Positions 11,137 to 60,471 of a stretch of DNA of 64,000 nucleotides are shown one piece after another. This DNA is from Blasia pusilla (lineage: Eukaryota). The notes below the pieces were generated by a model. The model saw nothing but the letters and a program-made list of their open reading frames with translations, searched no databases and was not told the DNA's origin. The translations under genes and the position numbers were made by a program. Positions within the stretch are counted from its first letter, which is position 1; every line of letters begins with the position of its first letter. The stretch is taken from contig CM114271.1 in the NCBI GenBank assembly GCA_050084515.1, positions 49,228,001 through 49,292,000 on the forward strand, written 5' to 3'.

Positions 11137-11316
11137 TGGGAGTGTCGGAATACCAATTCTCTGTTACAAGGAACAAATATAGAAGCTAAAATATAAATAG
11201 AATACCTAAAATATTCATAAGAGAAATAAGAAAAAAATTGACTTAACAAAAGGCATGTATATTGCAACATGTCTTTGATGCATAAGATCTCCTCTCAATG
11301 GAACAACAAAATCTTC

Positions 11317-14250: not shown

Positions 14251-14319
14251 GAATGTGCTTCCCTTCAAAGTTAGGAATACGTGCAATATTGAGCAAATTT
14301 TTCAAGTTCAAAATCCTTC

Positions 14320-14583
14320 TAGATCCCATATTTGGAATCGAGGCATGTACATTGTCTTCATTTTCTTCCATATGGCCTTCACGATTGGCCACATTGGCAT
14401 CGCTCCTTATGAACGGATCGCCAACATGTGCAATCTCATGTACTTCTTCCAAATGTGATCCCATATTTGGAATCGAGGCATGTACATTGTCTTCATTCAC
14501 TTCCATATGGCCTTCATAATTAGGTTTATTGGCATTACTCCTTATCAACCGATCGCCGACATGTGCAATCTCATGTACTTCAT
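14320..14583 (-). repeat. About 132-bp in-frame tandem duplication in the Helitron N-terminal ORF
   Basis: Peptide EVHEIAHVGD...EGHME.NEDNVHASIPNMGS occurs twice in ORF 13934-14827. Confidence 0.85.
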
Positions 14584-18303: not shown

Positions 18304-20181
18304 TCATAAGCATCTTCTTTTCCTGAGGACACCAAAGGCGATAAGCTTTAGACTTATCATTGTATCCCATAAAGATGCACTTCCTGCTCTTGGACTCCAA
18401 CTTGGTCCTCGATGCTTCAGGAATATGTACAAAACACTCACTACCAAAGTCCTGAAATGTTGGATTGATGGTACCTTACCTGAGTATGATTGATGAGGAG
18501 TCATGCCTTGCACTGACTTGGTAGCACTTCTATTTAGAATGTATAGGGCAGTATTAATAGCTTCAGCCCAAAAGCCTTCTGTCAAACCTTTTGCTTTCAT
18601 CATACATCTTGCCATCTCCACCATTGTACGATTTCGACGCTCAACAACTCCATTTTGTTGTGGTGTATGTGCCGTGGTTAACTGTCGCTTGATTCCATGC
18701 TCTCCCAAATATTTGTTGAATTCTGTTGATAAGAATTCTCCTCCTCGATCGGTGCGAAGCTTTTGTACCTTCTTTCCTGTCTCATTCTCAACCAGCTTGT
18801 GCCATACTTTAAATTTTCCAAAAGCACTTGCCTTATCACGAAGGAAATACACCCACATCTTCCTACTATAATCGTCGACAACTAAAAAGAAGTAGGAAGA
18901 ACCACCTAATGCCACCGTTCTCATTTTACCACAGAGGTCAGCATGTCGCAACTCTAGAGGAGCCTTTGCCGTATTGCTGGACTCTTGTGGAAATGGTTGT
19001 CGGTGTTGCTTGCCCATCATACAAGCTTCACAAGTATCCGACACTCCATAAATTGTTGGTAAATCAGCAACCATGCCAGATTTCTGCATCTGACTTAGTA
19101 AGGGAAAGCTTAGGTGACCAAATCTTTCATGCCACAACTTATTGCTACTAAGATCTGTACCTACACTTGTCGTGAAAGCATACAACTCGTAGATATTTCC
19201 ACGTCGTATACCTTCACCCACTTCTTTCCCATTGGCATCCTCAATGACTGCTCCAGTTTTCTTGAAACGAACTTCTAGGTCACGATCACATAATACTGCC
19301 ACTAAAATCAAATTTCGCTTCAACTCTGGTACGTACAGTACATCAGTTAACTTCTTTTCATCTCCTTTTTGTGAGACTAAAGAAATTGTGCCTTTCCCTT
19401 CTACAGGGCACTTTGCATTATTCCCAACAGTAACAACGATGGGCTCTTGTAGAGGCTGTAAGGAGCTATACCAATCCTTATGATTGGTCATATGCCTAGA
19501 TGCTCCACTATCGAGCACCCATGCATCTTCACTCTTTGTCTTAGTGGTATGTTCTGCATGTGTGCAGAACTCTTCTATTGCTACCCAAGCATCTACTTCA
19601 TGTTCTCCCAGTTCTACAGAATTTCCACACTTCTTCTTAGGTCTTAAACAACCGTTCTTCTCATCCTGACTTCTCTTCCTACAATCTTTGGTAAGATGAC
19701 CTAGCTTACCACAATAAAAGCATTTGAAGGCTTTTCTTGGAAATTTCTTCTTGACATTTGAACTGTAATCCTGATTTCTACCTCTCTGTACGTTGGCAGT
19801 AAATGTTGCGTCACTTCCCTCTCTTGCTTTGAAGCGCATTTCCTCTTCTACCAACATTGCACTAAATTTTTCAAAAGTAAGCGGCGTGGGTCTTACTTGA
19901 GTATTCACTGCAATGACCAAACTGTCATACCTTGGAGGCAAAATCCTTATGCACCGGCGTGCCAAATCTTTGCTAGACTTTGAAATTCCCACGGACGCCA
20001 TCTGATCTTGAAGATTCTTGATCCTTGTCAAAAATTGCTCCGCGCTTTCTCCTTCTGAAAATTTCTCGGACGTAAGCTGATTCTCCAGATTTTGAATCCG
20101 AGTCTCATTCCTCGTTTCATACTGATTCTTCGAAATGTTCCACGCCTCAGCAGCAGTGGTTGTATGTTGAATGAGAGTCAT
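18304..20181 (-). CDS. Copia gag-protease-integrase polyprotein fragment (625-aa open segment)
   Basis: Zn knuckle, DSGAS protease, GAG-pre-integrase (LWHERFGH...CEAC) and rve integrase motifs. Confidence 0.9.
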   Translation of the reverse strand: MTLIQHTTTAAEAWNISKNQYETRNETRIQNLENQLTSEKFSEGESAEQFLTRIKNLQDQMASVGISKSSKDLARRCIRILPPRYDSLVIAVNTQVRPTPLTFEKFSAMLVEEEMRFKAREGSDATFTANVQRGRNQDYSSNVKKKFPRKAFKCFYCGKLGHLTKDCRKRSQDEKNGCLRPKKKCGNSVELGEHEVDAWVAIEEFCTHAEHTTKTKSEDAWVLDSGASRHMTNHKDWYSSLQPLQEPIVVTVGNNAKCPVEGKGTISLVSQKGDEKKLTDVLYVPELKRNLILVAVLCDRDLEVRFKKTGAVIEDANGKEVGEGIRRGNIYELYAFTTSVGTDLSSNKLWHERFGHLSFPLLSQMQKSGMVADLPTIYGVSDTCEACMMGKQHRQPFPQESSNTAKAPLELRHADLCGKMRTVALGGSSYFFLVVDDYSRKMWVYFLRDKASAFGKFKVWHKLVENETGKKVQKLRTDRGGEFLSTEFNKYLGEHGIKRQLTTAHTPQQNGVVERRNRTMVEMARCMMKAKGLTEGFWAEAINTALYILNRSATKSVQGMTPHQSYSGKVPSIQHFRTLVVSVLYIFLKHRGPSWSPRAGSASLWDTMISLKLIAFGVLRKRRCL

Positions 20182-20528
20182 GACAGATCGATTACATTCG
20201 TGACAATCGCATATAGAGCATCAGCGTTTGGCGTCTCCATGCCAATAATACAACAGATCGATATCCCCGGATGAAGATGAACTTGCGTAACTCAAACTAG
20301 CTTGTAGATTTGAATCGACCCCTGTGGCCGTTTCCCAGATCTCAAATGATTCGAGAACAGTTCTCATTTTGAACTTCCACAACGTATAGTTAGACCCATC
20401 TAACTTCCCTTCACCCAGCGGAGGAGGGCGAGCACGAACTGACGAAGAAGTAGCCATCTCTCAAGATTTTGTGCAAACACACTATATCGCCAGATACAAA
20501 ATCTTTGGAAAAACCTCGCTCGATACCA

Positions 20529-28598: not shown

Positions 28599-31500
28599 TG
28601 TGAAAAATTGCTAAACAAGCATAACTAGTGGAAAACGGCTGACACACACACACCACCATGGAGAATAAAACTTGCAATGAGAGAATGAGTAGAGGCTGGT
28701 CCTCTTCTCAATTATATAGGGTATGTACAAGCAACCCTAACCCTATCCTTAACCATTGTCTCGAGTTAGACTAATTGGGATTAACTAACCCTAGTTAGGA
28801 TAATCCTGCTTAACTGACTAACCAAGATTAAGCTTCTCTAGTTCGTGTGAGTACCAAATATAGCAGTTCAGGTGTCTTATGAGCTTGATTGTAACTCAAT
28901 CTTAAATATTTCCCCTCAAGCTCATATCAATATCTCTAACGCCTAAATCCTTTCTAAACATCTCAAACTTATCTCTAGAAAATGCCTTTGTAAAGATGTT
29001 AGCAATTTGCTGATCTGTATCTATATACACAAAACCAATTTCTTGTGCAAGCACTTTCTCTCTGATAAAATGATAGTGCACCTCTACATGCTCTGTACGA
29101 GCATGAAACACAAGGTTATTAGCAAGCTTGATGCTACTAATATTGTCTACATCTATTACACTAGGTCCTAAGTTACTAACACCAATCTCAACAAGTAATC
29201 GATGAAGCCATACCGCCTCACATGCTACATTGGTTGCTCCTCTATACTCAGCCTCTGTTGAAGATAAAATAAATTTAGGTTGCTTCTTTGAAGTCCAACT
29301 TATAGGTGCGCTTCCCAAAGTAAATGAATAACCAGATGTGGAGTATTGATCAGACACGCTTCCTGCCCAATTTACATCTGTGAATCCCTGTAATTGAAAA
29401 CTCGGAGAAGATACAAATTGAAGCCCGAATTTAATAGAGAATTTCATATACCGCATAATCCTCCTCACAGCATCAAGGTGAGGTTTTTGAGGTGCTTGCA
29501 TAAATTGGCTCACTAGGCCAACAGTATAGCTCAAATCTGGTCTAGTTATAGTTAGATAGATCAAACTTCCAACCATGTGCCTGTACATATTAGAATTTGC
29601 AAGCAGCTCTCCTTCATCCACTCTTACCTTCACGCTCTGATCCAACCGTGTAGAGATTGGCTTACAAGCCGTCATACCATATTTTGAAAGCATATGAAGA
29701 GCATATTATCGTCGTAGTAACCACATGCTCTCTCCAACCTTGATAAACTCAATACCAAGGAAGTACTTGAGTTCTCCCAAGTCCTTCATATCAAATTCTG
29801 CTTGTAACCTAAGTTTGACTTCTTGTACCATTTCTTTAGTACTCCCAATAATCAAGAGATTGTCAACATACAACACAATGAGAACTGTATGATCTTGTCT
29901 TCACAAGACATATAAGGAGGAGTCAGAATCACATATCCTAAAACCCAACTCTTGTAGAACGTATGTAATCTTGCCATACCAAGCTCTTGGAGCTTATTTG
30001 AGTCCGTATAGAGCTTTCTTCAACCTGTATACGCGAAATGGAAACTTGGGATGCTCTCGTATCCAGGTGGTTGAGTCATATATACCTCCTCGTATAGATC
30101 TCCATTCAAGAAGGCATTCTTGACGTCTATGTGATGTAATCTCCACTTCTTACTTACTGCAACTGCAACCACTATTCTCGTAGTTGCCATCTTTGCAACA
30201 GGGCTAAATCTTTCCTCATAATAGATACCATATTGTTGTGCATAGCCCTTAGCCACCAATCTCGCTTTGTATTTGTTAATTACACCATTTTGATTGCGCT
30301 TGATTTTGTAAACCCATTTGCAACCAATAGCTTCCTTACCGGAAGGTATATCAACTAGCTCCCATGTTTGTTGATGTCTTAATGCAGCAAGCTCTGTCTC
30401 CGTAGCTTCAATCCATTCGGCTTTACTCGCAACTTCTTCAAAACAACTCGACTCCTTCTCTTGAAGGGTAGTCATCATATATGCATGACGTGTCGCAAGG
30501 AAACCTTCATTTATGAATCTATGAACTGGATGTGTAACTCTACTTGATCTACGAAGTTGTTGTTGAGAGGTAGATGCCTCTGACACCTGACTCGAACTCT
30601 AGCTAGTGTCAACAGACTGAATATATACTCTTCCCGTCCATGGACTCATAGATTTAACTGATAAATCTAGGATCTCTCCTAATCTTGCACTAGTACTTGG
30701 GGAAGTTGAAGACAATGTCTGTTGGTTTATAGTCATATTCTCCCCCTCAACAGACAAGTTTAGAGGTGGAATAGGCTCAGATGGAGCATACCATGACTTT
30801 AGCTCATCAAAGATAACATCCCGACTAATAATAAGCTGCCTAGAGGATGGAATGTAACACTTATACCCCTTAGTTCCATCAACATAGCTAATAAAGATAC
30901 ATCTTTCAGACTTGGGGTCTAATTTCTGACGTCTTTCAGAAGGAACATGAGTATAGCAGATACAGCCAAATACTTTCAAAAAGGAAAAATCAGGTTTACT
31001 TCCTGTGAAGACTTTGAATGAAGTTTTATCATGAATTCGTGATGTTGGAGTTTGGTTGATCAAGAAGACTGCACATGCTACATGCTCTTCCCAATACACC
31101 TTAGGCATATTTTTCTCATTCAAAGATAGCTCGTCCGCTTTCAAACAATATGTCGATTCTTCCTCTCAACCACTCCATTTTGTTGTGGAGTGTAACGGCA
31201 AGTCATTTGACATTGGATGCCATTATGACGTAAATAGTCATCAAACTCTGTTAAAAGATACTCTCCTCCTCCATCATAATGCAATTTCAGAATGTGTTGT
31301 CTAATCTGCTTCTCTACTAGAACTCTGAATATTTGGAATATTGAGAATACCTCTAACTTGCTTTCAAAAAGTATACCCATATATACCTAGAGAAGTCATC
31401 AATAAATGAAACAAAGTAGTGGAAACCACTAAGGTTGTCCACACACCACTGTGGATCAATTCCAATATCTTGGATGCTCTTCTACCTTGCTTTGGAAAAG

Positions 31501-33897
31501 GAAATCTAGCTTGTTTTCCAAATTGGCAAGCAGGATATACCTCTAATATAGCAGTACCCGCTAATTTAGGGAGTCTTATTACTATATTAGATGATGAAAG
31601 ACTCTGTAATCTTTGAAGATTCATATGTCCAATTCTTTTATGTGACACATTTAGATCTGTGATTTGTTGGCCGGTTTGACCATACATTGTTGTTTGAATC
31701 TCTGGCATAGAAACATCTAATTTGAATATTCTGCCATATCTAGTTCCTTAAGCTATCGTAGTTTGGTCATTCATTATTTCAATGAAATAACCATTTGCGT
31801 TTAACTTCACTTGATAATCGTGTTCTATTATCTGTCCTACAGAGATCAGATTTCTTGTAATAGTAGGAACATAGAGAACATTTTGAAGAGCACAAAGACC
31901 ATCTGATGTTATTGGAACTTTACCGGTATGCGTGATATGATATTGAGTGTCATCTCCTATGAGCACAATTACAGGATCTTTCACGGCTCCAAACTACCAA
32001 ACTATTTCACTTGTGAGGTCATGTGATTTGATGCACCGGAGTCAATGTACCAATCTACTGTCGAGTCTTTCTTGTCCATTGCTCCCATATGATGAGTCAT
32101 GACCAAGAGATGCTCCGTTTGTGAATGTTGTTGTTCTTGGTACTGCTCTTGGTATTGTTGCTCCACATAGTTTTGTTGCTGTAAGGCTCATGTTCTAAAA
32201 TCTGCTTTCTTCTTGAAGCAAAAATTTGCATAGTGACCCTTTATCCCATAGTAATTGCAAGATCCAGGGACCCTTTGTTGTTGACCTCGATCCCAACGGT
32301 TTCCACCATCACCACCTTGTGATTGTGTGTGGTACTGGTTCGTAGTTGATTGAGTGGCGTTATATTGAGTGCCTCTTCCTCCATATGCTTGATATGCATC
32401 ATGACCACGGAAGTTTTTGCCACGATCCTTGCCTCTATTTGATCCATAACCTGCAAATAGCGCACTCTCTGTAAATTAAACGAGCTAGCGCTGCCTACCA
32501 GGCGCATCTCTTCACAGATCAACAGAGGAACTAACTCTTGAAAGGTTAGATACTTCTTTCTCACAGAGATAGAGGTCTCAAAGGACTTGTAATCCCTTGA
32601 AAGACCTTGAAGAGTGAATAAAATAAGATCATCATCTTCTACTATCATTCCAATGCTATTCAACTGATCAACAATATGTCTGATATTCAAAATTTAATCA
32701 TTGATGCTCTGCGATCCTTTCCTCACTTCATTCAATTGCTGTTTCAATTGAAGCTTTCTGGCCTTTGTAGATGTTTGGAATAGCTTTTCCAATGCATCCC
32801 AGATCTCCTTCGGAATATCAACATCTTGGATGTAACCTATCATTGGCGAACTGATCATTATTGAAATGTAGTGGATTACTTGTCTTGTGCGTTTGTTCCA
32901 AGCGTGAACATTCAAGTCTCTTGAGTCACCTTCTGGCTTGGTCTCATCACCTGTGACAAGCTCCCATAGTTCTTGATCCATGAGAAATTGTTTCATGCAA
33001 AACTTCTACACATTGTAATTCTGCTTGTCTAGCTTCTCGCTTGTGATTGCTATTGAGGAATACTCCATGATAAACGATTTCACTCACAAAAAACATAATT
33101 TCAGGCTTTCTACTGCTCCAATTGAAGCATAGACCACTCCTACATAAAAATCGACCTGAAATTTGCCAAAATTTATCAACTGTATGAAAGAACTAGTCGA
33201 AATTGGCTTGTAGAGAGCAAACTGCACAACTTTTCTTCATTTATTGCACTTTCCTACATTGAAATTGATGCTACAAGAGCTCAGAGTATTAGAATCGAGC
33301 GATTTTGGGTGCGCTAGAAAGCTCTCGACGAGCTCTACCAGAAGGCTAGAACCCTCTTTCATCATCATTCTAGCCGAAGTGGACCCAAACGGCTGAATCG
33401 ACCGAGAAAGCCCTAAAAAATGCCTTTAAAGTTTTATCACCGTCAAAGTTCCACCTGAAATTTGCACCCACTAAGCTCTGAAGAAAATTTCCTTCTTCCA
33501 AATTGAAATTGTGCCTTCTCTTGCCTCTCTTCTCTCTTCAAACACAAAGAATTTTAAGTGATGTTCTCTTGCCGCCCTGATACCATGTGGAAAACTGCTA
33601 AACAAGTATAATTGATGGAAAACGACTCTCTCACACACACACCACCATGGAGAACAAAATTTTCAATGAGAGAATGAGTGGAGGCTGGTCCTCTTCTCAA
33701 TTATATAGGGTATGTACAAACAACCCTAACCCTACCCTTAATCATTGTCTCGAGTTAGACTAACTGGGATTAACTAACCATAGTTAGGATAATCGTGCTT
33801 AACTGACTCACCAAGATTAAGCTTCCCTACTTTGTGTGAGTACCAAATGTAGCAGTTCAGGTGTCTCATGAGCTTGACTGTAAGTCAATCTTCAATA
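28599..33897 (-). mobile_element. Ty1/Copia LTR retrotransposon (copy B), full length but degenerate
   Basis: LTRs 28599-28908 and 33586-33897 (roughly 90% identical by eye). TSD ATCCT on both sides. PBS tggtatcagggc (33574-33585) and PPT at 28909. gag, WYIDSGASNH protease, integrase, RT and RNaseH fragments with many stops. Confidence 0.97.
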
Positions 33898-39340: not shown

Positions 39341-40715
39341 TTACACAGGACGATTAGGAGACTTGTAATCGTAAGCTGGTGTAGGATATCGATTTGGAAC
39401 CCGAGGAGAATCGGAAACTCGAGCTGGAGGTGCAGAGTATCGATTGGGAACCCGAGGAGAATCGGAAACTTGAGCCGGAGGCTGATAGATGTCCACCGGA
39501 GGAGAATTGTAAATATAAGTAGGAGGACTAGGAGAATCGAATGCACGAGGAGGAGACTTGAATTTGAAATCCGGAGGAGGAGGAGAGGTGTAAGGCGGAG
39601 GAGGCGACTTGAATTTGAAATCCGGAGGAGGAGGAGAGGTGTAAGGCGGAGGAGGCGACTTGAATTTGAAATCTGGACGAGGAGGAGAGACGTAAGGGGG
39701 AGGAGGCGACTTGAAGATGAAACCCGGCTGAGGAGGAGAGACGTAAGGGGGAGGAGGCGACTTGAAGATGAAACCCGGCTGAGGAGGAGAGACGTAAGGG
39801 GGAGGAGGCGATTTGAAGATGAAATCCGGCTGAGGAGGAGAGACGTAAGGGGGAGGAGGCGATTTGAAGATGAAATCCGGCTGAGGAGGAAAGACGAAAG
39901 GGGGAGGAGGCGACTTGATGACATCTGCACGAGGAGGAAAGACGAAAGGGGGAGGAGGCGACTTGATGAAATCTGCATGAGGAGGAAAGACGGAAGGGGG
40001 AGGAGGCAACTTGATGAAATCTGGACGAGGAGGAAATACGAGAGGGGGAAGAGGAGGAAATACGAGAGGGGGAAGAGGAGGAAAGACGGAAAGGGGAGGA
40101 GCAGGACTAGTAGAAGCGTGGTCGTGCTGCGGTGCTGGAGCAGGAGGATTCGACAGTAGTGATGTAACTGGCTGGTGCGCTGGTGATTTAGCTCGTGGTG
40201 ATTCTGAAGGTGGAATAAGCTGGGACGCTACATCACACACCAAAAGATTATTAAAAAAACGTCTAAAAGTCAAATTGGTGAAGTTCAAAAAGATTTGTCT
40301 CACGACACCGATCAGCGAATAGGATATCACCTTTGCAAGTCGAGTTGTAGGTCTGTCCACTGGGAATCTTGCCGCATTCATCAGGGAGAGCGCAAAGCTT
40401 TTGAACATCGTACTCCGGGTTCTTCAGAGCAGCCGTATATAAACAATCATAGGAATACTCTCTTACTATGTCACAACATGGAGACCAGAAGAGAGGGCTA
40501 GTAGAAGCTTCTTTCACAATGAAACTTGCACACGCCGCAAAAACAATGATGGAAGCACATTCTTCTGACAAAGATACATGTCTAGAGTTTTGATCTTTTT
40601 CCCATGAATCGGACTCATGGTTCTCTTCCCACGGGAATTCGAAACTGGCTATCCTAATGGAGCAGACAAATAAACATACCAACACCAAGTCAACTTTCCT
40701 CCCCATTGTGCTCAT
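39341..40715 (-). CDS. Secreted chimeric protein: signal peptide + nsLTP-like 8-Cys domain + extensin-like SPPPP repeat tail (exons 40715-40331 and 40227-39341, about 423 aa)
   Basis: Hydrophobic N-terminus and Cys scaffold C-x8-C-x17-CC-x9-C... A 103-nt GT..AG intron (40330-40228) in phase 1 joins ORF 40263-40718 in frame to the Pro-rich ORF 39341-40408. Confidence 0.85.
39550..40035 (-). repeat. 48-51-nt coding tandem repeats (KSPPPP[F/Y]x[S/F]PPxPDFxF)
   Basis: About 9 units visible in both DNA and protein. Confidence 0.95.
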
Positions 40716-41885
40716 CAAGGAAACTCTCTTTGAGCGACTAGAGATGACTTGAGCGACTAGAGATGAGAAGTTTTGATTGACTAAAGAACTAATCGCAATG
40801 TATATTACTCACGCATCTTTGGGACAAAAAATGTAATCTATTTCAAAATTCTATTGTAAGTATCTGTGCTACAATAGATTTAGTAAGGTAGACTTCAAAA
40901 CGTAATGGATCTGAATTGGAGTGCATGTGAATTTGGGATACTTGAAAATGGAGTGGATCTGAATTGGAGAAGTGCCAAATAGATTCGTATATTTCAAAAC
41001 TGAGTAGATCTCCCCCGGTTTTCAAATTAAAAAGCCGTATACGAAAGTACCAAATCAATCTCGTTTATAAACCTAATTTTCGAATTTCAAACAATATTTA
41101 CAATCCAAATTAATCTTACTGGTAAGACAATTTTGTTTTGTGTTAACCTCTACGAAGATCTCCAAAAACGGTAGGCACCGAAATAGAAGATCTGGTTTCG
41201 CATCCATCGATACAACAGGACGGAGAAAAACAACCGTTTCCCTTAGCACCTCCAATAAAAGCCACAACCACGCCCTAGTTTTTTCGTTGGACGCAGCAAG
41301 GAAATCATGCGGTTAAGTGGTACGGACTAGTCCTCAAACTGGATTCTTGGACAATCAGAAATTAAAGAAAAAGAGAGTTCCACAGGATCTCCGGAAAACG
41401 CCCAAATTCGACGACTATTTAGCGGAGTACTGTCCAAAACTTAACCGATTCGAAGATTTCCTAAACCGGTGTGAAATCAACTAAACATCTTTCTCCAATC
41501 ATTATATATAGAGTGTTGAGCTAGTGAAGCACCAAAAGAATAGAGGAATCGAATAAGATTGGTTAATGTAACTGCAGAAAAGTTGTGTTCAGTTTGGGCT
41601 TATCCTAGTAGCCGTTACTTTTGAGCTCTCACGTAGAGGACGAGAAAAAGTGGTCGAGGCGACTTCGAATTGGAACCCGTTAACCATGATTCCCCATAGG
41701 GCTGCGACTATATATGGGACCCTTGTGCAACCATCAACATTCAACCATCTTCATTCCACTGTTCATTCCTCACCGTCAGAGAGAATTACTATAGCCAGCT
41801 GTTGGCAATCTCATTTCCACTAACGCTTTCTGCCCGAAGTATCCGAAGACTCACGGAGAAAATTTAGCTTTCACCGGCTGAAGGT

Positions 41886-42594
41886 ATGGATTCTAAGAGA
41901 CTGCAGTTGGTGCTGCTGCTCGCCGTATGTATGGCTATGGTAGCATTAGGCTCAGCGATCTCGGAAAACCCCGAGGGCGAAGAGGCCCATGCCCCGAATT
42001 GCACTTACGGGATGCCAGCAGGGCCCAAGGACGAATCCGAGCCTACGCCTGATAGGTGCGGCCCGCTTGGGCGTTTCCGCGCATGCGCTCCCTTTGTAGA
42101 GAAGGGCACGAAGAATGAAAGCGCAGTCCCGAGGAGGTGGTACCCGTACTTCTTCCGAATGAGGCACTCTCTCTGTTGTAGACTAGTGAGAGAGGAATCT
42201 TTTGAATGCTTGTGTGATATTGTGACGACGAAATTTTACGATTTCGAGTTGGACGTTCAGAAGGCCCTCGAATTGCCAATGAAGTGTGGCAAGAAGATCC
42301 CAAAAGGACTCATGTGCGATGGTATGTACACTTTATATCTCCGCGTCGATCACTATCCTAGTGCGTTTAGATGTGGCCCGATTCTACCCAGTAGCTATGG
42401 TCACGTTATCGCATTCTAAGTCTGACTGCTAATTTGCATATACCTCAAATGGTTTTGGACATGCTCCTAACAAGCTTAGACGTACGATCCCGAAATTTGG
42501 AATAATACTTTTGATGTGGATCCATCTCACGAAATTCGGGCGCCTGTTTCATGTGCGTGACGCAGGGAAGTTGGTGCCGAGTCCAGCCTTTTGA
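41886..42594 (+). CDS. nsLTP/protease-inhibitor/seed-storage 8-Cys secreted protein (exons 41886-42321 and 42566-42594, about 154 aa)
   Basis: Signal peptide and scaffold C...C...CC...CLC...LPMKCGKKIPKGLMC. Donor G|GTATGT at 42322; acceptor GCAG| at 42565 gives the C-terminus CDGKLVPSPAF*. Confidence 0.88.
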
Positions 42595-44699
42595 AAGAGC
42601 GGACCTCGACAACGTACGGGATCCAGAAATGTGGCGTACTACTTCGTGACAATGCGGGAGCTTAAAGCTTGCGCGGGCTTGCACGTTGTGTTGGAGGTAC
42701 TAGCTAAGTACCAGCCGGAGAGGAAGTGATCTTTTTATAGAACATCTGTTCAGTAACGTACTGAGCGTTTCCTGTATGGATAATTTCCCCAGGAAAAGCT
42801 CTCATCTGATGATATAGGTAGGTGCAGAGCACATTAAGAGTTTCTTAGTATTATCGAGTGCTCGTCCGTATACACTGTGTATCCACCCCTGATTTGCACC
42901 TCTGATTTGTCTGAATATATGCTGAGACATTTTCTTTGGAAAAGATTGTGACGATACTTCTGAGGTCCGTGAAGTCGTCGATGAATAGATAGTGCACAGA
43001 ACTTGGAATCCAGTTCCATGTTCCAATAAACGCATCACATGACATCTTCGCTTTGACTCAAGTATCAAGTGAAATATATGTCGAAAATATGCAACACCGT
43101 CTAACACCTTGGTTATCCACCTGCTAAAACCATTCTGATGGGAAAATGGAACGGTGGAAGAGATTTGTCGAATTACTCTGTTATATCATGTATCTCTAGT
43201 TAGCTAACCGTCCTCCCTGTTCCGCTTCTCTTTCTCCGATCTGCCCTCCAATACCTTGGGTTTTACTGATGCCTTAAATGTGAAGAATTAAAAAAGTCAC
43301 CTTTACCTGAAATGATTCTTACATCGAAATATTGGGAATGTTCAACTCAGCCGATGTTTAAGTTCATTCATGATGAATTAGAAAGTTCAAAGATTCAGAA
43401 TTTGTCGTTCATACTGGAGGATGACTCTTTCAGCCTCCGACCGCAGCGACAGCCAAGGAGTCGTTGATGCAAGAGGACTCCTACCTATTTCTCGCTCAAA
43501 TAATACCAGATAAGCGTCATCTTGTCTCATTGTACCAGGGTTCACAATTTCTGCTGAAACAACGTACCAAAATCATGATAAATCTAGTGACGATGAACTT
43601 GCGTTGTTACACAAGGTAAAGAGGTTCTTTCTGCGGAATTCCATTTCTGATTATGGCAGGTCATCATTGCCGAGATACCGAGGACTCTGGACTATCAGGC
43701 GTTGAGTGGATCAGATCTCACTCTATGGGATTGAATGATAAAGTCCATCTAGTGACATCTTTAGTCGACTTCCTAGAAACACACTTGACGATTTTTAAGT
43801 GTAAACGCTAGTTTATGCACCCTTGGCGAATAGAAACAACCCTACCCCTTACCTTTGCGTTATGAGGTAAGAAAATTCCAAATCCTATTGGTTTGCGGTG
43901 GAGGTTGAGGGTTTTCCACGGTCATGAAGTAAGAGACTGCTGTGAAACAAAGAATGCGTCTCTCCACTGGAGAACGCGCAGGAGAGTATATTCATATTCA
44001 ACTGATCACAGTTCAGGAAGACTCAGAATGTGGCAATCTCAGAAAATCAAAACACAGGGCTCCCAAACAACAGCAGTCAAGATTCAGAAAGAGATACCTG
44101 AGCACACCTCGTAAACTCATTACTGGTAAGTAAATTTCTTGGTCCTCGCACTCTTGAAAACACCACAATCAAGATGATGTGTCTACCTCAGTTCGATGCC
44201 AGCGCAACCTGAGGGTTGTGGCATACTGCGTAGCACAAGTTGTTCAATCTGTCTTAGGAAGCGAATCGTATAAGCCCCCAAAACGCGAAGGATGTCTTAT
44301 ACTTTGACTAAATTTTTTATAAAGGTTGCTTTGTCTCTACATGTGGTTGTCAATAGCAATTTCGGATTCGTGTCCAGGTGGATATTCGTGGTGTCCTGGT
44401 GGCGCACCTATCCAGTCTCCGTACATGACATTTGTAATATCTATTTGACCAGTCCAAATGGTTATTTTTCTTCATGGCTTAAGATGACCCTTCGGAATCA
44501 CATACAAATGAACACGTGCAGGATAAATTATGAAGGTGTTAAATTATGATATCTAAAATTTATATCACATATTCCGTCCAACCAAAGAATCTTATGTCAC
44601 TTAAAATTCAGGATTCCCCACGGTTTCATCTTGTAATCTCCCCCGTCTACGCGTCCCCGCCACCAACCTATCCTACTGCCTAAACCACTTTCATGTTTC

Positions 44700-46270
44700 C
44701 ATCGTAGGCTATGCTGATTTTGACTTGGGAGGTTTTCAAAAGGCTTTTCTTCATCTCTCTAGTTCATCCTCGGTCAAGGATGGTTTTTGAGCATCTTCTC
44801 CATTGTTTTATCTCGGCACATTCACCAAGTGGTTTTGTCTCTCCATAAAAGATGTGTGCACATATTATGGTAGATAGTCTCTCATTCTCTATCTCTAGGC
44901 TCTTATGGGTTTGTCGATTTTTGGATATGGATAAGCCTTATTCGGATCAACCCCTTGGCTATTGGAGAGGTTTTATGCCGCTTGGTTAGTAGATCCATGT
45001 GGTTGCAATTTTTTCTTCACTTTAGTGCCCACTTATTTCCTCATCAATTTGGAGTGGTGGTTGTGAGGTTGTGGTGCATGGGATTTGCTCCACTTGGGAT
45101 CCACAATTTATCTTTCCTATTTATTTTGGAGGGGTTGGGTTTTCCTCCCCAGTTGCATCTCCTCCAACAACTTTTTTGGGGAGTTGGGCATTGGTAGCAT
45201 GGATTAATTATGGCCTGAAGGTTTCTCCAAGGAGATACACCTATATATTTTGATGGATTGTGTTGTCTATGTAGAGGAGGAGGACCTGTTATTTCAACAA
45301 AAACTGCACAATCTCTTCTTTCTCTTGCTGCATAAAAAATTCTAGCCCCTTTCATTGAATTGATTACGGAAGGGCTTGATCAAATTGAAAAGCACATCTA
45401 TGAGAATTTGTACCAAATCAAAATTTCCACCATTCTCCGAGGCATCCTCTAACACTCATCGAGCTCGGTTGTGTTCATGTGCGGGTACCAGAGCGGGGGC
45501 ATAGCTTACTGAAAATCTTGATATTCTTCCATTTCGTCTGCATCGAAGTATATTCTCGGCAGCTTTACGGTTACGCCTTGGACTTCCCCATCCTTCTCTC
45601 TTAGGTATGCTGAATTGCATATGCAGGGATCCCATTCATGCAAAGAGTATCCATATTCTACCATATGCACATAGTGGAGAACAAATGGCCACACGTGATA
45701 TCATTAGAGAGGTGATAGCATCGATGGATTGTACTAGGAGGTATACTGTTGGGCAAGAGCACCTATATATCCTACCTTCAACCACACAAGCAACCTCTCG
45801 TCGGAGAGTTGATCTTGTTATGTCTTGAGATGGATTCTAGACACTAGGTGATGTGGTGGTTTCTCATCCAACACATTCTGATTTTGGTGTGTTGAGTCGC
45901 ACTTACTAAATATTCGGCGGCCAAAGCTTCAGCAGGAATCAAGGAGTTAAGTTATGTCGTGAGACAAGCGACTGATGGATTCATTCCTTTTGCAATGGAA
46001 ATATTGGGTCATTTACATATGTCTTTTGATACTTTCCTGAAAATCTTTTCTTACCATTCTCTCGATAATCATCACCTTGCCCCTTCCCGTAGTCCTTCTC
46101 TCTCCGTAGTTACTATTTACTTTTGGAAATACATCTGAGTGGCCTTACAATTTGCACAAGCCTTGGTATTGATACGTAGTGCGAAGGTGGTGGGGGATCG
46201 TTCACCTCGTTGTCCAATCAAATTTGACCAATCACTAATGTTCTTGTCAGATTTGTTATCAATTGTGTAG
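44700..46270 (+). mobile_element. Degenerate non-LTR retrotransposon, CRE/R2-like (RT fragment + restriction-like endonuclease)
   Basis: RT-like LAIGEVLCRLVS...HLFPHQFGV. RLE-like order: ATRDIIREVIA, QEHL, RRRVDLV, TLGDVVVSHP, AAKASAGIKELSY, FIPFAMEILG. Most of the RT core is missing. Confidence 0.7.
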
Positions 46271-48803
46271 CTCGTTCAGTTCGTGTTTTCGTTGGCTTGT
46301 TGCAAATTTTTTTTTGCATTCCATTGTGCATTTTTTGACTCCTCTTTTGACATGTTATTACCTTTCTTTATCCTCTTTTGAGGTTTTTTTTCATAATAAA
46401 GTGAATATTTGCTTATTTTAGTTAGGATTGTTAGTTGGTTATGGATTCTTTTCATTAAGAGTTTTGTGTTTGATGAGTTAGGAACAGTTTGATGACATGA
46501 GTTTAACAATAATGAAGAAGTCGGACCACCCTATAGAAGTCTCTCTTCCATATGATATGAGTGATCTACAGTTCTTGTCTATCAAGTTTTGGACAAATTT
46601 ATGAAATTGAAGGGAAAGCATGAGCAAATGTGTATTGAGCATTAGAATACAATAAGATTTGGAAAGGATAATAAGACATAAGAGAAACATCAATTATGGA
46701 AAACCATATGAAGCAAGGCTTATAAATTCATAGTGGTTAGAAAACATCAAGAAATGGACTAAGTTAAGAGGTTAATATGATTTTTTTTCAACCCAGAAAA
46801 ATTGAGCCCCCTTTTGGCTCTCCACTAACCGTGTTTCATAATATTGGCACAAGCATCTCGCCATCCTAGCATGCAAGTAAAGAAAATGCCCAATTAGTTG
46901 AGGGTTTTTATTATAGAAGGGAGGGATATTCACACCATACCATTAGCCAAATGCATGCTTTGCTTAAGTCAAGTTGCCTACAAAGGTTGCTTTGTAAAGC
47001 ATTTTATAGGCATATGCATTGTCTAAAAATGTTATTAATTTATATATAGTCCCAAAAGGTGACTATATAAAAAACCCTAGTCAAGAAGACTCTACTCTCG
47101 TTTTGCCATTTCAAAATTTTTTTCATAGTTTCCGAGTTGAGTTTGTACAACTCTATTATAGCTTAACACAACTTTACAAGTCAAGATTGATGCAAGTGTG
47201 GAAAACCTTGCTCGCAAATAGGATTGCAAGCAAGGTTTTGCATAAGCCAAATATTTTTCAATTTCTATCACAAGACTCCCAAATATAAAATCCCAAAATT
47301 TCATGAATTTGGATTGAATATTTCCCAAATTTTGGAAACCAAAAACTCAATTTTTATTCCATAAATTTCTCAAAAATTCCATGACAAATATTAATCCTGA
47401 ATATTTTTCTAAGACTTTCTTATGCACTAATTGACCATAAATAGTAGCTATCCAAACTGACACTTCGTGGTTATGGCATCTTGCATTTGAGTCAAAAGAG
47501 ATTTGCTATTAAATTTCTTAGAGTCATAAATAGGAAGTTATCTTCCATTCGTTAATAAAGACACTATAGGATAGGATCCTTATTTGATGCTTATAATACT
47601 GCTAGATGAAAAGCGAGATGCATGGAAGTACCTAACAGAGTCAAGATGGGGACACCATTTGTCCATTATGTTTGAGAGTCACGTGGGTGCTTGGGAGTGT
47701 AGCGAGGACAAGAGGTTATATTTTCGTTGATTCCTTTGGCACGAGGCCTAAATGACAACCATAATACGTCCCCAAAATTCAAATGGTAGCTCAAGCTATG
47801 AAAATTCTAATATGTTTGATAGTGAGCATACAATCATAATCTTTCCACGACCTACGTAGGTAATTTGTCACAAATGCAGTTCTTTTGTGGGCTTAAAGGT
47901 AGATTCATGGAGATCGTGCATGAGTGCTCCAAACCTGCGCAATTGCATGTACTTCTAGTTCACATTCGGCTCATAGGGGTCAGGCGGAAGTTACTCTTGA
48001 TAATACATTTGGCGATGACTCTTTAGATTCTTGGTACGATCCTAACGAGGATTCGACCACCTCTTATGAGGAGGAGCACTAGAGGAGAAGAAGATGGGCG
48101 GTGGTTCATAATCCATATGCTTTGTCTCCATGATATGCTCCTATCACACATGAGTTGACAAGTTGTACCCGGAAATCTAGGGATTAATTGGAGGGATGAG
48201 GTTATAGCCCTCGACTATGAGATGGTAGTAGCAAGTGACTAGAGAACCTTCTATACATTTTGACTATGAGTCATTGGTGCAGCGCATTAACAATTTTTTG
48301 AATAAAATGAAAGATCATTCCTTTCATGGCATTATTTTAGCATAATTTACCATCCTTAATTGACAATTGATAATTTATCATGGTCTCTTTAGGGGTAACT
48401 TGCCAACCTTTGCCACTACTTGTAAACTCATTCTTACCACTTGCATTCATAAACGTTACGTCGTTACCACCTTTGGAAAGTGGCTGAACATATTTCGCTT
48501 CTTACAAGATGTGTTAACTTGAGGGGGATTAGGGGAGGTTAATGAAGATCCTATTGACATGGTAAAATTGACGTCCCTAAGGCTTTGGGTGGTAAGAACA
48601 TTTCTCGTGAGCACCACAAGGGAAATGATTTACCATGCTTGGGGAGAGGTACATCTACCCTCCTTGAGAGAAGTAAGAAATCACTACCACCCTTACGGTG
48701 GTGGTAAAGTAACTTATGACTAGGAGGTAAGAAAGTTTATCCGAGAAGTGGATTTGCATCTAAATCTCCCGTGTGTGCATGATCGCGACTCTTAAGCTCG
48801 CTT

Positions 48804-51800
48804 CTAATTGGAATTCGGTCTGCTGTACCTGTACCATCTGGCAGCGAGAAGATAGAGTAAGAAGTTGACGAAGCTGACGACTGCGAGCAGCCAGTAGAAG
48901 AGGTCCAAACGACCAGCATTGAAATCCTCCGCCAGCCACCCCTGACCTCCAGTGGCTTTCGTCGTGATTCCGTCCACAGCTTCAACGAAAACGCTGCTGA
49001 AGTAGAAACCAATCGCATGGGTGCACAAGGCTATGGCAGTGCCGGTGCTTCTCATGTTCACGGGCGACTCGTTGTAGCAGAAGTCGAGTTGTCCTACATA
49101 AGAGAACACCTCCCCAGCACCCACCAGAGTGTATTGTGGAAGAAGCCAGAAGGCACTGATATGGTAGTCGTGGCCAAAACGAGCGACAGAGCGACGCCTC
49201 TTCCTCTCGACCAGGGCTGCTGCAGCCATTGCAATGACGGATATGAATTGACCTATTCCAATTCGTTGGAGTGTAGTAATGCCTTGGGATCTTCCACTGA
49301 AATGATGGGCGATCCGCACGAAAACTTGATCATACAGAACCACCACGGCCATGATACTGAGTGGGAGAAAGGTGGAGAAGGAAGCTGGAGGGATCTCAAA
49401 ACTGGAGCCCAATCTCCGATCCATCATTTGCGCTTGCAGGACGCTGAAGGTGGTCATCTGAGCGTATACAGTCCAGAACATGAATGTGGTCAACTGAATC
49501 GCGGAGACTCGAATAAGGAGTTTGACCTCTTCCACTTGGGTTACAGTTATCGGATTCTGAGGTCGTGCACCATGATCATCATCATTATTTGGCGTCTTCG
49601 AGTCGTCTGATTTCTCCGCGCAAGCGATTGGGTGTCGGACGATTGCAGCTTTACTGAGAAATCTGTACATTTGCAAGTCACATGTGGTCAACATTTGGTG
49701 ACGTTCATTAGAACTCTACCGGAAGTCTGTCAGAAGCAAGGTTGATCAATCGGGCGAGGAAAGTCATTGCTTTAAACGCATGCTCAGTCGATTAGTGTTG
49801 AGATTCGACTAGAGCAATGCAAACATATGCACTCAAGATTCAGCCCCAGTGGCTGTGCAGCTATTAAGAAGACTGTATGTCATGAGTTGAAGCAGAACCG
49901 ACCGAATTCATCACAGGTCGATTCACTTTCAATCTTCTTAGCACTTTAAAGTAAGGAAATTGTTGGATTCATTGGGCAGCTAGTTGAAGTTTACTTTACC
50001 CCACGTCAAACCAAATCAAGGAAATTAACCATGCACGATACTTCATCATATTCGAATGCGAGATGAAACTTCCTCATGCTCCTCAACTGGAATCACAAGT
50101 AGGATTTATCGCTATGCAGCTGTAAAACGCTATCAAGTCTAAGAAGTGATATGTCCGAAATCTTACCGGAACTGGTTTGTGTGTGCGATGCCCTGGCGAT
50201 CTCCTGTCGGCTGCCAGTCACAGAAGACTACATCGTAGGAGTTCGAATTCAAAGGCATTTTCAGGTTGTGATTCCGGAATGCTGCTACGAAGACACGAAC
50301 AACTTGAGACAAAGGGCTTCCTTTGGCCGTCGTACTATATCTGTATAGCTTCCTGCCGGAAAAGAAGGCGAGCACAGACACGACCATGAACGACGCAGTG
50401 ATGCCAAAACCCCAGCTCCGACCGAGTCTGTCTTGGAGATATACTAAGATCGTCGCTGCGAACAGAGATCCCAGATTGATGTGAAAGAAGAACCAGTCGA
50501 AGAAGGTATCCAATTGTTTCGTTTCCTTACTATCGTGGGGATCAAACTGATCCGCTCCGAAAGGTGAGACTCATGCTTTGATACCTCCGGCCCCGAGAGC
50601 TATCAGGTATAGTGCTGTGTACAGCAACGCAAGCTGAAAACCATGGGTTTCTTCACACGGAATTGAATCCGTCGGGCTGCATTTCGGAACTTGAAACGTA
50701 GGCAGCGATGCAGAGATGGTGATCAGAAATAGACCCTGTGATCGCAGGAATCAGTTCCAAAATTTGATATCATTTATACATCATCAGCGATCTGTCTCTC
50801 GATTCGAGCAACAGAGACAATCATTTTAACTGCTTTCAATTCCATTTGTGAGAATTCATTCAGTATAACGTGCTCTAGTCCAGCTCGTTGTTAGTGTAAA
50901 ACGCTCGAGTGAATTCATTCAAATTGAATGAGATCCTGATTGCGCTATATCTGATGTTCTCAAGACATGTGCCAGGAAGAAATTCAATTACTGACTTTGG
51001 AGGGCGATCATTGAAGTGTGCAGTGCAATACTAGCTACATACAAAAGCTTCAGATGTAAGTCGATAATAATCAGATTTTAGAGTGGATGCAATTAATTTC
51101 GAAATGGAACATGTTCAATCTTGGGTGCATGGCATGCATTTGCAAACGATCCATGAATTAAGAATATGAATGGAATGTTACGGATCTGAGGAGGTATATG
51201 TGTACAGGGTAGCGTCAGTTCCAATCAGTTGAATTCAATACAATTTAGGGGTTGGTGTGGGTCTTTCATCCGTCGATGGGACGGGCGAAAAAGACATACC
51301 AGACATTCCACGGCACTGAAGCTGGCGATCGTCCAGAAACGACCTAACCAGGTGTCAGCCACGAAACCTCCAATCAAGCATGTAATCAAGGAAGTCCCCA
51401 ACACGTTCGTGGCCATATTTGCGGAATAGTTCCTGGGAAGATGGAGATCCCCCACTAGATAGGTCACGAGGTTGTTCAGGATCCCTAGGGCCGACATTCT
51501 TTCACACACTTCTGATCCTGCATCCATAAGCAGAAGGCACATCGATCATGTCCAGAAATCTAGGTGAATAAAAGTCCAAATTCAATTGTAAAAACTATAT
51601 ATCTTGATCATGACGAGATCTAGACTCTCGTGCATATGTAGATGATCCTAGGCTGCAGATCCTGATTAATTTAGGAAATAAGTTTGAAACTTTTCTGGAT
51701 TTGATCGATACCGCTTGCATGCTAAAGTATTCCTTCGCAATTTGTAGCATGCAAGCTACTTAAGATAGCTAATTTCTGAGCTTGTAATTAAATGAGCCCC

Positions 51801-58830: not shown

Positions 58831-59024
58831 AAGTTTGTGTATATAGAGTCCATCCTAGGGAGAGACATGTCTGTATAAGCCTGACCGCCGGCATCATACA
58901 CCACACCGTCCCCCCCTAGCTGGAAATCGTTGCCCATCCCTAGAACAGTGCAGAACGAGTGCGGTATGGCATGTCCGGACAAGTCCATCCCATGGACGGA
59001 CAAGTCCATTTCTTTGCAACCTTG
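58831..59024. mobile_element. hAT MITE family fragment
   Basis: Right end ggacaagtccatttctttgcaaccttg; left end degenerate. Confidence 0.6.
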
Positions 59025-60427
59025 TGTGTGATTGCATGAGATAATTGTGAAACGCAAATGGGAATTCTATTGTTATTATCATTTATTAGATATAGACAAT
59101 TGATAGTATTTGGTAATCTACTACGTACATAACTTATATCCACATCTCGAATATGATCAGACACAAACTTTCTACACCCATCTTTCACAACCCTCTCAAT
59201 CCTATCTTCTATTGCACACCCCTTTATAGGGATATCATCTACAAAAGGAATGGTTTTCTCAGGAATGAACTCTCTCAAGATCTTATTCATTGCACTCTGC
59301 ATGTGAGCGACAAAATTTGTTGCTCCTTGAGGTAATGTGCACATTCTTACAAGCCCAAGTGGTGTGCGCATAGTGGTAGTATCTCTACTCTCTGTAGCTA
59401 ATTGGAATCGATCATATCCCGAGTGCAAATCTCCTATAGAATAGATAGCACGGGCTGCAAAAGCTTCTGCGACTTCATCTATTCTAGGCCCCGCTCCCAT
59501 ATTTCGAATGGTTACCTTATTTTCCGGTTGCATATCTTGAATGAACCGGAGAGCTCCTGATTTCTTCGGCACAGTGAACCATCGACTCGAGTAAGGCCCC
59601 ATAGATGGCTCTAAGATACCCATCTGCATCTTCTCCTTCAATAACTCAATCAGCTTGGGAATCATAGCTCGTGGTATTGGTATCCCAAGGCACATGTGGA
59701 ACTGTGAAAATTACCATCGGTGCCACCACACTCATTTCTACACAACCAATTTCTTGTGTAGTAAAAGAGAAAGCCTTACCATGTCTCCTTCATATCTCCC
59801 GAAAGCATTTTCTTTCAATTTCTGTGAGAAACTCACCCCCTCCGATTTGCAGACGATCTAGCGTCTCTTCTGTGAACTTGTGTCCTATCTTCTTGACATC
59901 CCGCAGACTTGGCTCCATTGATGCACATTCTACTTGTCTCCCACAACCCTCTGGTAGTTGAGTAGCCATTGGATTCACCTTAAGACCTTTGTCTTGTATT
60001 TTGTGTGCACTTGTGCCTCCATGGGATGTTTGTCAGACTCAAACCCGTGCCCATCCGCTTCCTTCTCCGTAGATTCATATTCATTTTCTCCTTCCATGAA
60101 CCTTGATATCTCTTCATGCAACTCACGCGAGTGAATTGTAATCACCCTTGTATCCAGAAAATCGGTGTTCATCTGGGTAAACACCTCTTCAAGACTATCT
60201 CCAAAACCCTCTTCTTCATACATCTCACTAATGAACTCTTCATTTAATAGAACACCCTAACATTTTAACAAACCCTCCTTTTTTTTTTCATAAAACGTCT
60301 TTTCTTTTCATTCATTTCTTTCATCATTTGGAATCTACTAGACCACGAAGAAAAACATTGAGAAAACCCACACCTAAACATATACGATTCTTCCCCCTCT
60401 ACTAGCGGAAGACTCTTTCTTTTCTCT

Positions 60428-60471
60428 GCACCCCCATATTCTCGCTCTATAGGAGTGCTAACTAAAAATCC
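60428..60471 (-). promoter_or_regulatory. -1 ribosomal frameshift signal (slippery G GAU UUU + stem-loop)
   Basis: Minus strand: GGATTTT, 6-nt spacer containing the TAG stop, then 11-bp stem gcactcctata/tatgggggtgc with a 9-nt loop. Confidence 0.75.

What the first reader, a model, noticed from the sequence alone, without database searches (positions are those of the whole stretch)
39341..40715. Lipid-transfer-protein domain spliced to a long extensin-like rod
Seen: two ORFs in different frames are joined by a clean 103-nt phase-1 GT-AG intron (TGC AAA G|gt...ag|CG TCC CAG), giving signal peptide + 8-Cys domain + about 295 aa Pro-rich tail with SPPPP repeats and no hydrophobic GPI signal. Known: hybrid proline-rich proteins put the Pro-rich part before the 8CM domain, and LTPGs have short tails plus a GPI anchor. 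Inference: a chimeric extensin class that tethers a lipid-binding domain in the cell wall, for example in cuticle or spore-wall assembly.
Basis: partly seen in the sequence, partly recalled or inferred. Interest (0 to 1): 0.75.

Follow-up and report, generated by a model that had tools for sequence, protein, structure and literature searches.

The report
Liverwort lipid-transfer–extensin fusion wall protein
A two-exon plant gene joins a small lipid-binding-type fold to a long proline-rich cell-wall rod; other liverworts have the same design, which seems not to have been named, and this copy has phenylalanine in place of most cross-linking tyrosines and a relocated cysteine.

Summary
The gene model holds at sequence level: exon 1 (signal peptide + LTP-type domain), a 103-nt phase-1 intron, and exon 2 (295-aa rod, 10 SPPPP, no GPI signal); 423 aa. 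The donor lies 4 nt after the last Cys codon, the type-D LTP position, shared by 15 of 19 other LTP loci of this genome. RNA runs gave no test. The design is not unique. The domain falls in a liverwort clade (95/92) with two more SP4-tailed paralogues here and three Marchantia gene models bearing YxY extensin tails. I found no paper naming this order of domains (9 searches, open-licence library only). Its '8 Cys' are not the canonical 8CM: C6 is Tyr and a new Cys sits six residues before C7, each in 1 of 165 domains. Its repeats read FxF-KSPPPP rather than YxY. Best reading: a secreted, wall-retained LTP–extensin chimera, built like an LRX, that holds a lipid-binding head at a wall surface as an adhesive rather than a shuttle. 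Lipid binding and a cuticle or spore role are untested. New variant of known kinds (LTPd, 'other chimeric extensin').

The parts
40331..40715 (-). Exon 1: ATG, signal peptide, short acidic spacer, LTP-type domain; ends one base into a codon (phase 1)
40644..40715 (-). Putative signal peptide (about aa 1-24; cleavage site estimated by eye)
   Evidence: hydropathy; similar starts in Marchantia/Riccia relatives
40335..40559 (-). Divergent 8CM-type domain, C53-C127 (spacing 8-17-0-9-[C-L-Y]-..-C108-5-C114-12-C127); four-helix LTP2/DIR1-like model
40437..40439 (-). Tyr93 (TAT) at the canonical C6 position
   Evidence: 1 of 165 domains
40392..40394 (-). Extra Cys108 (TGC), six residues before C7, in helix 4; Leu in 87 of 165 domains
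   Evidence: Cys in 1 of 165
40228..40330 (-). 103-nt phase-1 GT-AG intron, donor 4 nt after the last Cys codon, TGTAG acceptor, GC 0.35
39341..40227 (-). Exon 2: 295-aa Pro-rich tail and stop; GC 0.53; basic (pI 9.7); no GPI-like end
39547..40034 (-). Tandem array of 48/51-bp units (about 9.7 copies) coding 16/17-aa units with KSPPPP, a single Tyr or Phe after the Pro block, and FxF before the next unit
39344..39545 (-). C-terminal segment: one YIY, a duplicated 17-aa unit, and a YDY near the end (the only two YxY of the tail)
41886..42321 (+). Head-to-head paralogue: exon 1 of a canonical 8CM gene of the same clade, the query's nearest row (40-43% identity); donor at +4; exon 2 not resolved

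Best explanation
A spliced, secreted chimeric wall glycoprotein from a liverwort clade of type-D-like LTP genes. In this clade exon 2, behind the conserved phase-1 intron, is a variable Pro-rich module. Shown: gene anatomy, clade, paralogues and Marchantia relatives with the same order of domains, LTP2/DIR1-like model. Inferred from extensin biology: the SPPPP blocks are hydroxylated and arabinosylated into a stiff basic rod that is held in the wall mainly by charge (Lys in each unit against pectin) and by stacking of FxF patches, with little Tyr cross-linking, mostly at the far C-terminal end. Inferred: the rod presents the N-terminal LTP head at a fixed place, as the extensin tail of an LRX does for its LRR domain. 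A tethered head cannot shuttle, so it most likely binds acyl chains of a surface lipid layer and acts as an adhesive between the hydrophilic wall and a hydrophobic coat (the 'adhesion LTP' role). Inferred: Cys108 replaces the lost C6 as partner of C127. My odds: spliced as drawn about 0.9; wall-retained HRGP about 0.85; lipid-binding adhesive role about 0.55.
For: Donor GT 4 nt after the last Cys in 15 of 19 other LTP loci examined (19 of the 20 hits), the position given for type D in PMC9832785. The acceptor is TGTAG where GC rises from 0.35 to 0.55. Paralogues L019 and L025 have the same donor and an SP4 exon; L017 and L034 have phase-1 donors at +1 and other Pro-rich exons. In the profile search 3 of 147 proteins with an 8CM have 2 or more SP4 after it, all Marchantia polymorpha models (OAE28185.1, OAE30382.1, OAE25731.1). 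An unspliced gene call (P0002) and the spliced model of the same cluster (P0151) part right after the last Cys + 1 residue. The query lies in a 12-row clade (95/92) with these. Model pLDDT 83, four helices; best matches DIR1 2RKN and wheat LTP2 1TUK (Z 6.0 each; Foldseek E 0.012 for 2RKN). Extensins are basic, pectin-interacting and rod-like when glycosylated, and the LRX1 EXT domain keeps it in the wall (PMC8012813). Adhesion-LTP idea: PMC5874595.
Against: No RNA support; the lay was no test. An earlier AG gives a 68-nt intron and an 11-aa tail. The domain scores under the LTP_2 cut-off, lacks C6, is acidic and has a long branch, so it may not bind lipid. Fold scores are middling (Z under 8, no Foldseek match at E <= 0.001) and the model was built on an LTP alignment. 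Changes between repeat units are not enriched at silent sites (3 silent: 7 replacement in the Pro frame, against 1:10 and 4:8 in the other frames). The Marchantia entries are gene models, not shown transcripts. In the smaller tree the 12-row clade was not recovered as a starred set.
Confidence: 0.5

Rival explanations
1. Structural extensin with a non-lipid cap: the gene is spliced and wall-bound as above, but the head has lost lipid binding and serves as a folded, disulfide-held assembly or protein/polysaccharide-binding cap, as proposed for HyPRP and PAC domains.
For: C6 lost and Cys108 gained; long branch, acidic surface; sub-cut-off LTP_2 score. PAC domains are likewise fused to extensin and Pro-rich tails (PMC7177597). 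A Marchantia model (P0164) keeps the signal peptide and extensin tail with only a stump of the domain.
Against: The four-helix LTP2-like fold is still predicted with high confidence, 7 of 8 canonical Cys are kept, and the X of C5-X is Leu as in type-2 pairing; the 10 best Atlas hits that carry a family are all of the LTP clan.
Confidence: 0.25
2. Wall-anchored signalling or defence protein: the DIR1-like head captures a lipid signal or binds microbial membranes, in the manner of DIR1/AZI1, and the rod fixes it in the wall.
For: Best fold match is DIR1. AZI1, an 8CM + Pro-rich hybrid, acts in systemic resistance (PMC5052319). Fast divergence and local duplication: three clade genes within 80 kb.
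Against: DIR1 and LTP2 are simply the nearest solved folds and tie at Z 6.0; a shared fold shows no function. DIR1 is a mobile protein. No expression data.
Confidence: 0.12
3. The long form is minor or not made: the gene yields a short LTP (read-through, or the 68-nt intron with an 11-aa hydrophobic end) or is decaying, and the extensin frame is a relic.
For: An alternative AG at 40263 exists; no reads; C6 loss is a single-base TGT/TAT difference; paralogue L037 has three frame breaks in its SP4 exon.
Against: Both exons are intact and in register over 423 codons; the 35 nt between the two AGs are AT-rich like an intron; the Cys count stays even; relatives in Marchantia keep the design.
Confidence: 0.1

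Closest known systems
Type D nsLTP (LTPd; Edstam classification, as cited in PMC9832785, PMC5052319)
   Same: Signal peptide; one intron 4 nt after the C8 codon; no GPI; C4-C5 spacing 9; LTP2/DIR1-like fold; occurs in liverworts.
   Different: C6 replaced by Tyr, extra Cys108; 295-aa extensin exon instead of a few residues; 423 aa.
'Other chimeric EXTs' and LRX (PMC4769139, PMC8012813)
   Same: Signal peptide + folded N-terminal domain + C-terminal SP4 domain; meets the working definition (2 or more SPPP, localised, non-HRGP domain).
   Different: The head is an LTP-type domain, not an LRR; no LTP-EXT subclass is named in the passages read; FxF in place of most YxY.
Marchantia polymorpha LTP + extensin gene models (OAE30382.1, OAE25731.1, OAE28185.1) and MpLTP-like73 (BBN15972.1)
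   Same: Same clade of domain, same order of domains in the first three, same junction position.
   Different: Their tails carry 6-10 YxY and no FxF; their domains are canonical 8CM and basic; MpLTP-like73 has a short tail and an N-terminal repeat.
Hybrid proline-rich proteins (HyPRP/AZI1; HLTA-F of PMC3149072)
   Same: Secreted 8CM domain joined to a Pro-rich repeat region.
   Different: There the Pro-rich part lies between signal peptide and 8CM (PMC5052319 for AZI1), and HLTA repeats are PPVTLPPVVK-like; here the order is reversed and the repeats are SP4. The order in HLTB-F could not be read.
LTPg / xylogen-like chimeric AGPs (PMC12209756)
   Same: 8CM first, Pro-containing region second; present in bryophytes.
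   Different: Those have AG glycomotifs, mostly a GPI signal and C4-C5 spacing 12; here contiguous-Pro extensin motifs, no hydrophobic end, spacing 9.

Membership tests
Type D nsLTP | Single intron 4 nt downstream of the C8 codon | tested here: met
   definition in PMC9832785; genomic evidence only
Type D nsLTP | Canonical 8CM with CXC | tested here: not met
   C91-L-Y93; 1 of 165 domains lacks C6 (the pattern admitted only C or Y there)
Type D nsLTP | N-terminal signal peptide | tested here: met
   hydropathy +2.78 after a basic N-region; no SignalP run
Type D nsLTP | No GPI anchor | tested here: met
   last 25 aa at -1.23; 54 of 147 hits have a hydrophobic end of 1.8 or more
Type D nsLTP | Small mature protein, little sequence outside the 8CM | tested here: not met
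   295-aa tail
nsLTP (any type) | Four-helix LTP fold | tested here: met
   model pLDDT 83, helices 6-16, 29-36, 39-48, 54-63; top matches DIR1 and LTP2, Z 6.0, modest
nsLTP (any type) | Hydrophobic cavity that binds lipid | not testable with these tools
   no coordinates returned, no assay
Chimeric extensin ('other chimeric EXT') | Two or more SPPP, localised, plus a non-HRGP domain and signal peptide | tested here: met
   10 SPPPP, Extensin_2 E 6.9e-9; definition
Chimeric extensin ('other chimeric EXT') | Hyp-arabinosylation and retention in the wall | not testable with these tools
   needs biochemistry
Classical cross-linking extensin | SP3-5 throughout the protein with repeated YxY | tested here: not met
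   N-terminal folded domain; 2 YxY against 9 FxF in the tail
HyPRP | Pro-rich region before a C-terminal 8CM | tested here: not met
   order reversed; no Hydrophob_seed hit for exon 1
LTPg / xylogen-like AGP | C-terminal GPI signal | tested here: not met
Spliced gene as modelled | Transcript across 40331/40227 | tested here: inconclusive
   no records on the gene in 4 of 4 runs; runs too shallow or not shown to hold the organism

The most novel reading that the evidence does not exclude
Liverworts have an unnamed family of LTP-headed wall rods in which the conserved LTPd intron acts as a socket for exchangeable HRGP exons (YxY extensin, FxF extensin, Tyr-free SP4 of about 5 kb, PPPHMNQY, short AGP-like). 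In this lineage Tyr cross-linking extensins are lost genome-wide, and this protein anchors by Phe stacking instead, with a rewired C108-C127 disulfide in its head. It would be a single-chain adhesive between wall and cuticle and a direct test of the adhesion-LTP idea in Marchantia.
Probability: 0.25. Interest if true: 0.7.

Novelty: new variant of a known kind. Interest (0 to 1): 0.45.

Why it matters
How a hydrophobic cuticle is fixed to a hydrophilic wall, and whether LTPs are shuttles or adhesives, is open (PMC5874595). An LTP covalently joined to an extensin rod can hardly be a free shuttle, and Marchantia, which is easy to edit, has at least three such gene models, so the question becomes testable. 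The family also shows one intron coupling a conserved domain to quite different wall modules. The FxF rod is a natural version of the Tyr-to-Phe experiment on extensin anchoring. Without expression or phenotype it remains an architecture finding.

Tried and rejected
RNA: no RNA holder listed. Laying X3, X4, X5, X1 on 40110-51600 gave no record on either LTP gene; X1 covers only pieces of the NPF gene and a repeat, X3 and X5 laid nothing, so this is no test. Word-indexed homologue searches for longer proteins found nothing (weak evidence) and a third only Marchantia near-copies. Own-genome search with Extensin_2 rang nowhere, not even at this gene, so it is uninformative. Silent/replacement test among repeat units: inconclusive. 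Single or several origins of the SP4 tails: 4 changes on the tree, but one clade is not rejected (p-AU 0.324), so unresolved. Atlas: LTP clusters at 0.83-0.87 for exon 1 (lead only); no usable hit for P0007. Earlier scan findings: none. Supplements of PMC4769139 hold no Pfam or domain labels at all (3 files unreadable), so their silence on LTP-EXT means nothing. Exon 2 of the neighbour gene: no convincing candidate among five TGYAG sites within 4 kb. Rejected: HyPRP (order), LTPg (no GPI), and the Leu/Ser-rich or Arg-rich alternative frames of the repeat (by-products of the array; no matching relatives seen). The C108-C127 distance could not be measured, because the model's coordinates are not returned.

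Full report
OBSERVATION. On the minus strand an ATG at 40715 opens a 385-nt exon ending TGC AAA G, followed by a 103-nt GT-AG intron (40330-40228) and an 887-nt exon ending at the stop at 39341. Joined in a script this gives 423 aa: a hydrophobic N-terminus, a Cys-rich domain and a 295-aa tail with 105 Pro and 10 SPPPP. The tail matches Pfam Extensin_2 (E 6.9e-9); exon 1 matches LTP_2 only below cut-off (E 0.032). The last 25 residues are hydrophilic (best 13-residue window -1.23), whereas 54 of 147 related proteins end in a hydrophobic stretch.

IS THE SPLICE REAL? RNA gave no test. No RNA holder was listed, and no record of 4 runs lay on the gene; X1 shows only shallow contigs on the neighbouring NPF gene, and X3 and X5 laid nothing. 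Comparative evidence is good. The donor is 4 nt after the last Cys codon, the intron position given for type D LTPs (PMC9832785, passages). Of the 20 LTP_2 hits in this genome I examined 19, and 15 have GT at that place. Within 139 nt of the donor there are six AGs. The one at 103 nt reads TGTAG, sits where GC rises from 0.35 to 0.55, and opens the Pro frame; those at 32, 68 and 111 nt give tails of 4, 11 and 10 aa, and those at 127 and 139 nt enter the same Pro frame slightly later. The 68-nt acceptor remains a possible minor form. An open frame alone proves little here, because the repeat leaves other frames open too, and silent against replacement changes among units did not single out a frame (3:7, against 1:10 and 4:8).

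A FAMILY IN THIS GENOME. The genome has 390 Mb in 26 contigs with LTP hits on C1-C9 and C13. With the relatives below I infer a liverwort. Exon 1 finds six paralogues, and a paralogue query two more. L019 has the +4 donor and a 126-aa SP4 exon. L025/L037 has the +4 donor and an SP4 region of about 5 kb, 102 SP4 in all, broken into four frames. L017 has a +1 donor and PPPHMNQY repeats; L034/L035 have a +1 donor and a short Pro/Ala tail. I chose these acceptors because they lead into the Pro-rich frame; 4 of 4 read TGYAG. For L018, L021 and the head-to-head neighbour at 41886-42321 no exon 2 was resolved.

RELATIVES ELSEWHERE. A profile of seven own domains found 185 proteins at E <= 0.001; the best 150 were listed. 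Among 147 proteins with an 8CM (these hits plus P0151), 3 have two or more SP4 after it: P0006, P0007 and P0151, Marchantia polymorpha models OAE28185.1, OAE30382.1 and OAE25731.1. P0007 carries precomputed Pfam LTP_2 and Extensin_2. P0002, an unspliced gene call in the cluster of P0151, parts from it one residue after the last Cys, as the same phase-1 intron would give. These are gene models, not transcripts I saw. Other near hits are Riccia fluitans, M. paleacea, Sphagnum and 'MpLTP-like71/73'. In a 79-row tree (20 own domains, 59 of the 145 matched library domains, 83 columns) the query lies in a 12-row clade (95/92) of own, Marchantia and Riccia rows, on a long branch, nearest its neighbour gene (40%). 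A 22-row tree left this clade open; the SP4-tailed rows need 4 changes, but one origin is not rejected (p-AU 0.324). One angiosperm-type multi-domain LTPg (P0010) has SP3/SP4 linkers between its domains, so SP4 beside an 8CM is not wholly confined to this clade.

WHAT IS PECULIAR TO THIS COPY. (1) The Cys pattern. CxC reads C91-L-Y93, and a Cys stands at 108, six residues before C7. Each state occurs in 1 of 165 domains, both in this protein; position C7-6 is Leu in 87 (the pattern admitted only C or Y at C6, and 4 of 149 library proteins did not match it). Bryophyte LTPd/g are modelled with C6-C8 pairing (PMC5874595), so I infer C108 takes over C127. This is not measured, and a base error at one codon is not excluded. 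The model is confident (pLDDT 83, four helices), and its best matches are DIR1 and wheat LTP2 (Z 6.0, rmsd 3.0 and 2.5; Foldseek E 0.012), middling scores. The domain is acidic (pI 4.5) where the Marchantia ones are basic. (2) The rod. Units of 16-17 aa read K-S-P4-(F/Y)-(V/T)-(F/S)-PP-x-P-(D/G)-F-(I/K)-F. The tail has 9 FxF and 2 YxY, the latter near the C-terminus; the Marchantia tails have 6, 10 and 8 YxY and no FxF. The F(I/K)FKSPPPP pattern has 6 matches in the genome, all in this gene. Tyr versions are at control level: YYYKSPPPP 0; YxYxSPPPP 2 against 3; YKSPPP 12 scattered singles against 7. The assembly thus shows no tandem Tyr extensin by these three patterns; other spellings and assembly gaps were not excluded.

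HOW IT MOST LIKELY WORKS. Extensins are basic, interact with pectin, need arabinosylation to form rods, and are cross-linked through paired Tyr; the EXT domain of LRX1 keeps that protein in the wall (PMC8012813, passages; its reference list has a title stating that Tyr is needed for function but not for insolubilisation, paper not read). I therefore infer a secreted rod held mostly by charge and Phe stacking, lightly cross-linked at its far end, carrying an LTP head that cannot diffuse. LTPs have been proposed to act as transporters or as adhesives between cuticle and wall (PMC5874595, parts 1-3 of 5); a tethered head fits the second (0.5). Rivals: a non-lipid cap on a structural rod (0.25), a fixed DIR1/AZI1-like signalling or defence role (0.12), and a short or decaying gene (0.1).

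COMPARISON AND NOVELTY. It works like an LRX-type chimera with an LTPd-derived head. It is not a member of canonical LTPd (C6, size), LTPg/xylogen (no GPI), HyPRP (order) or classical extensin. It meets the working definition of 'other chimeric EXT' (PMC4769139, PMC5073881, passages). Nine searches found no paper naming LTP followed by extensin, nor the source of the 'MpLTP-like' names. I read passages of PMC12209756, PMC9832785, PMC4769139, PMC3149072, PMC8792609, PMC5073881, PMC9029284, PMC5052319, PMC7177597, PMC8012813 and PMC12480973; none describes it. Limits: the library lacks subscription papers. Edstam 2011, the Marchantia genome paper and the 1KP HRGP survey (recalled, not read) may list such proteins. 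Two Marchantia LTPs were left unclassified in the published tally. The supplements of PMC4769139 carry no domain labels, and the HLT alignments of PMC3149072 are pictures.

VERDICT. A real and probably spliced gene; a conserved liverwort design already present, unnamed, in public Marchantia annotation; this copy is a distinct variant (FxF rod, shifted Cys). New variant of a known kind, interest 0.45.

Noticed in passing
L037:1968-7607 (G000:C1 about 33.255-33.261 Mb): Paralogue with an 8CM exon followed by about 5 kb of SP4 repeats (102 SP4, no YxY, Ile/Leu/Ser spacers) broken into four frames; pseudogene or assembly errors. If whole it would be about 1,800 aa.
   Followed up: partly
G000, whole genome: No tandem Tyr-type extensin motif found by three patterns (all at control level), while Marchantia members of the same clade are rich in YxY. 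Possible lineage-wide loss of cross-linking extensins.
   Followed up: partly
window 41886-42321 (+): Head-to-head 8CM paralogue 1.17 kb from the query's ATG, with a long aromatic/basic loop between C2 and C3 (spacing 29) as in MpLTP-like73; exon 2 not found.
   Followed up: partly
L017/L041 (G000:C1 49.347 Mb, 77 kb from the window gene): Clade member with a +1 donor, a 486-nt intron and a tail of PPPHMNQY repeats; L034/L035 (two near-identical copies 15 kb apart on C13) and probably L050 also use the +1 donor.
   Followed up: partly
P0164 (Marchantia AXG93_3612s1040, neighbour of P0007): Gene model with signal peptide, a stump of the 8CM domain and a YVY extensin tail; a route from the chimera to a classical-looking extensin, or a faulty model.
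   Followed up: no
window 48807-50570 (-): NPF/POT (PTR2) transporter exons (E 1e-49, 1e-29), with shallow contig cover in run X1.
   Followed up: no
window 9338-14839, 17349-20220, 28905-32693, 58943-62789 (-): Broken mobile-element frames judged by eye from translations: Helitron-like helicase pieces, two copia-like and one gypsy-like retroelement; not checked against a library.
   Followed up: no
window 14322-14590: Two 135-bp tandem copies (88%) inside the Helitron-like frame.
   Followed up: no
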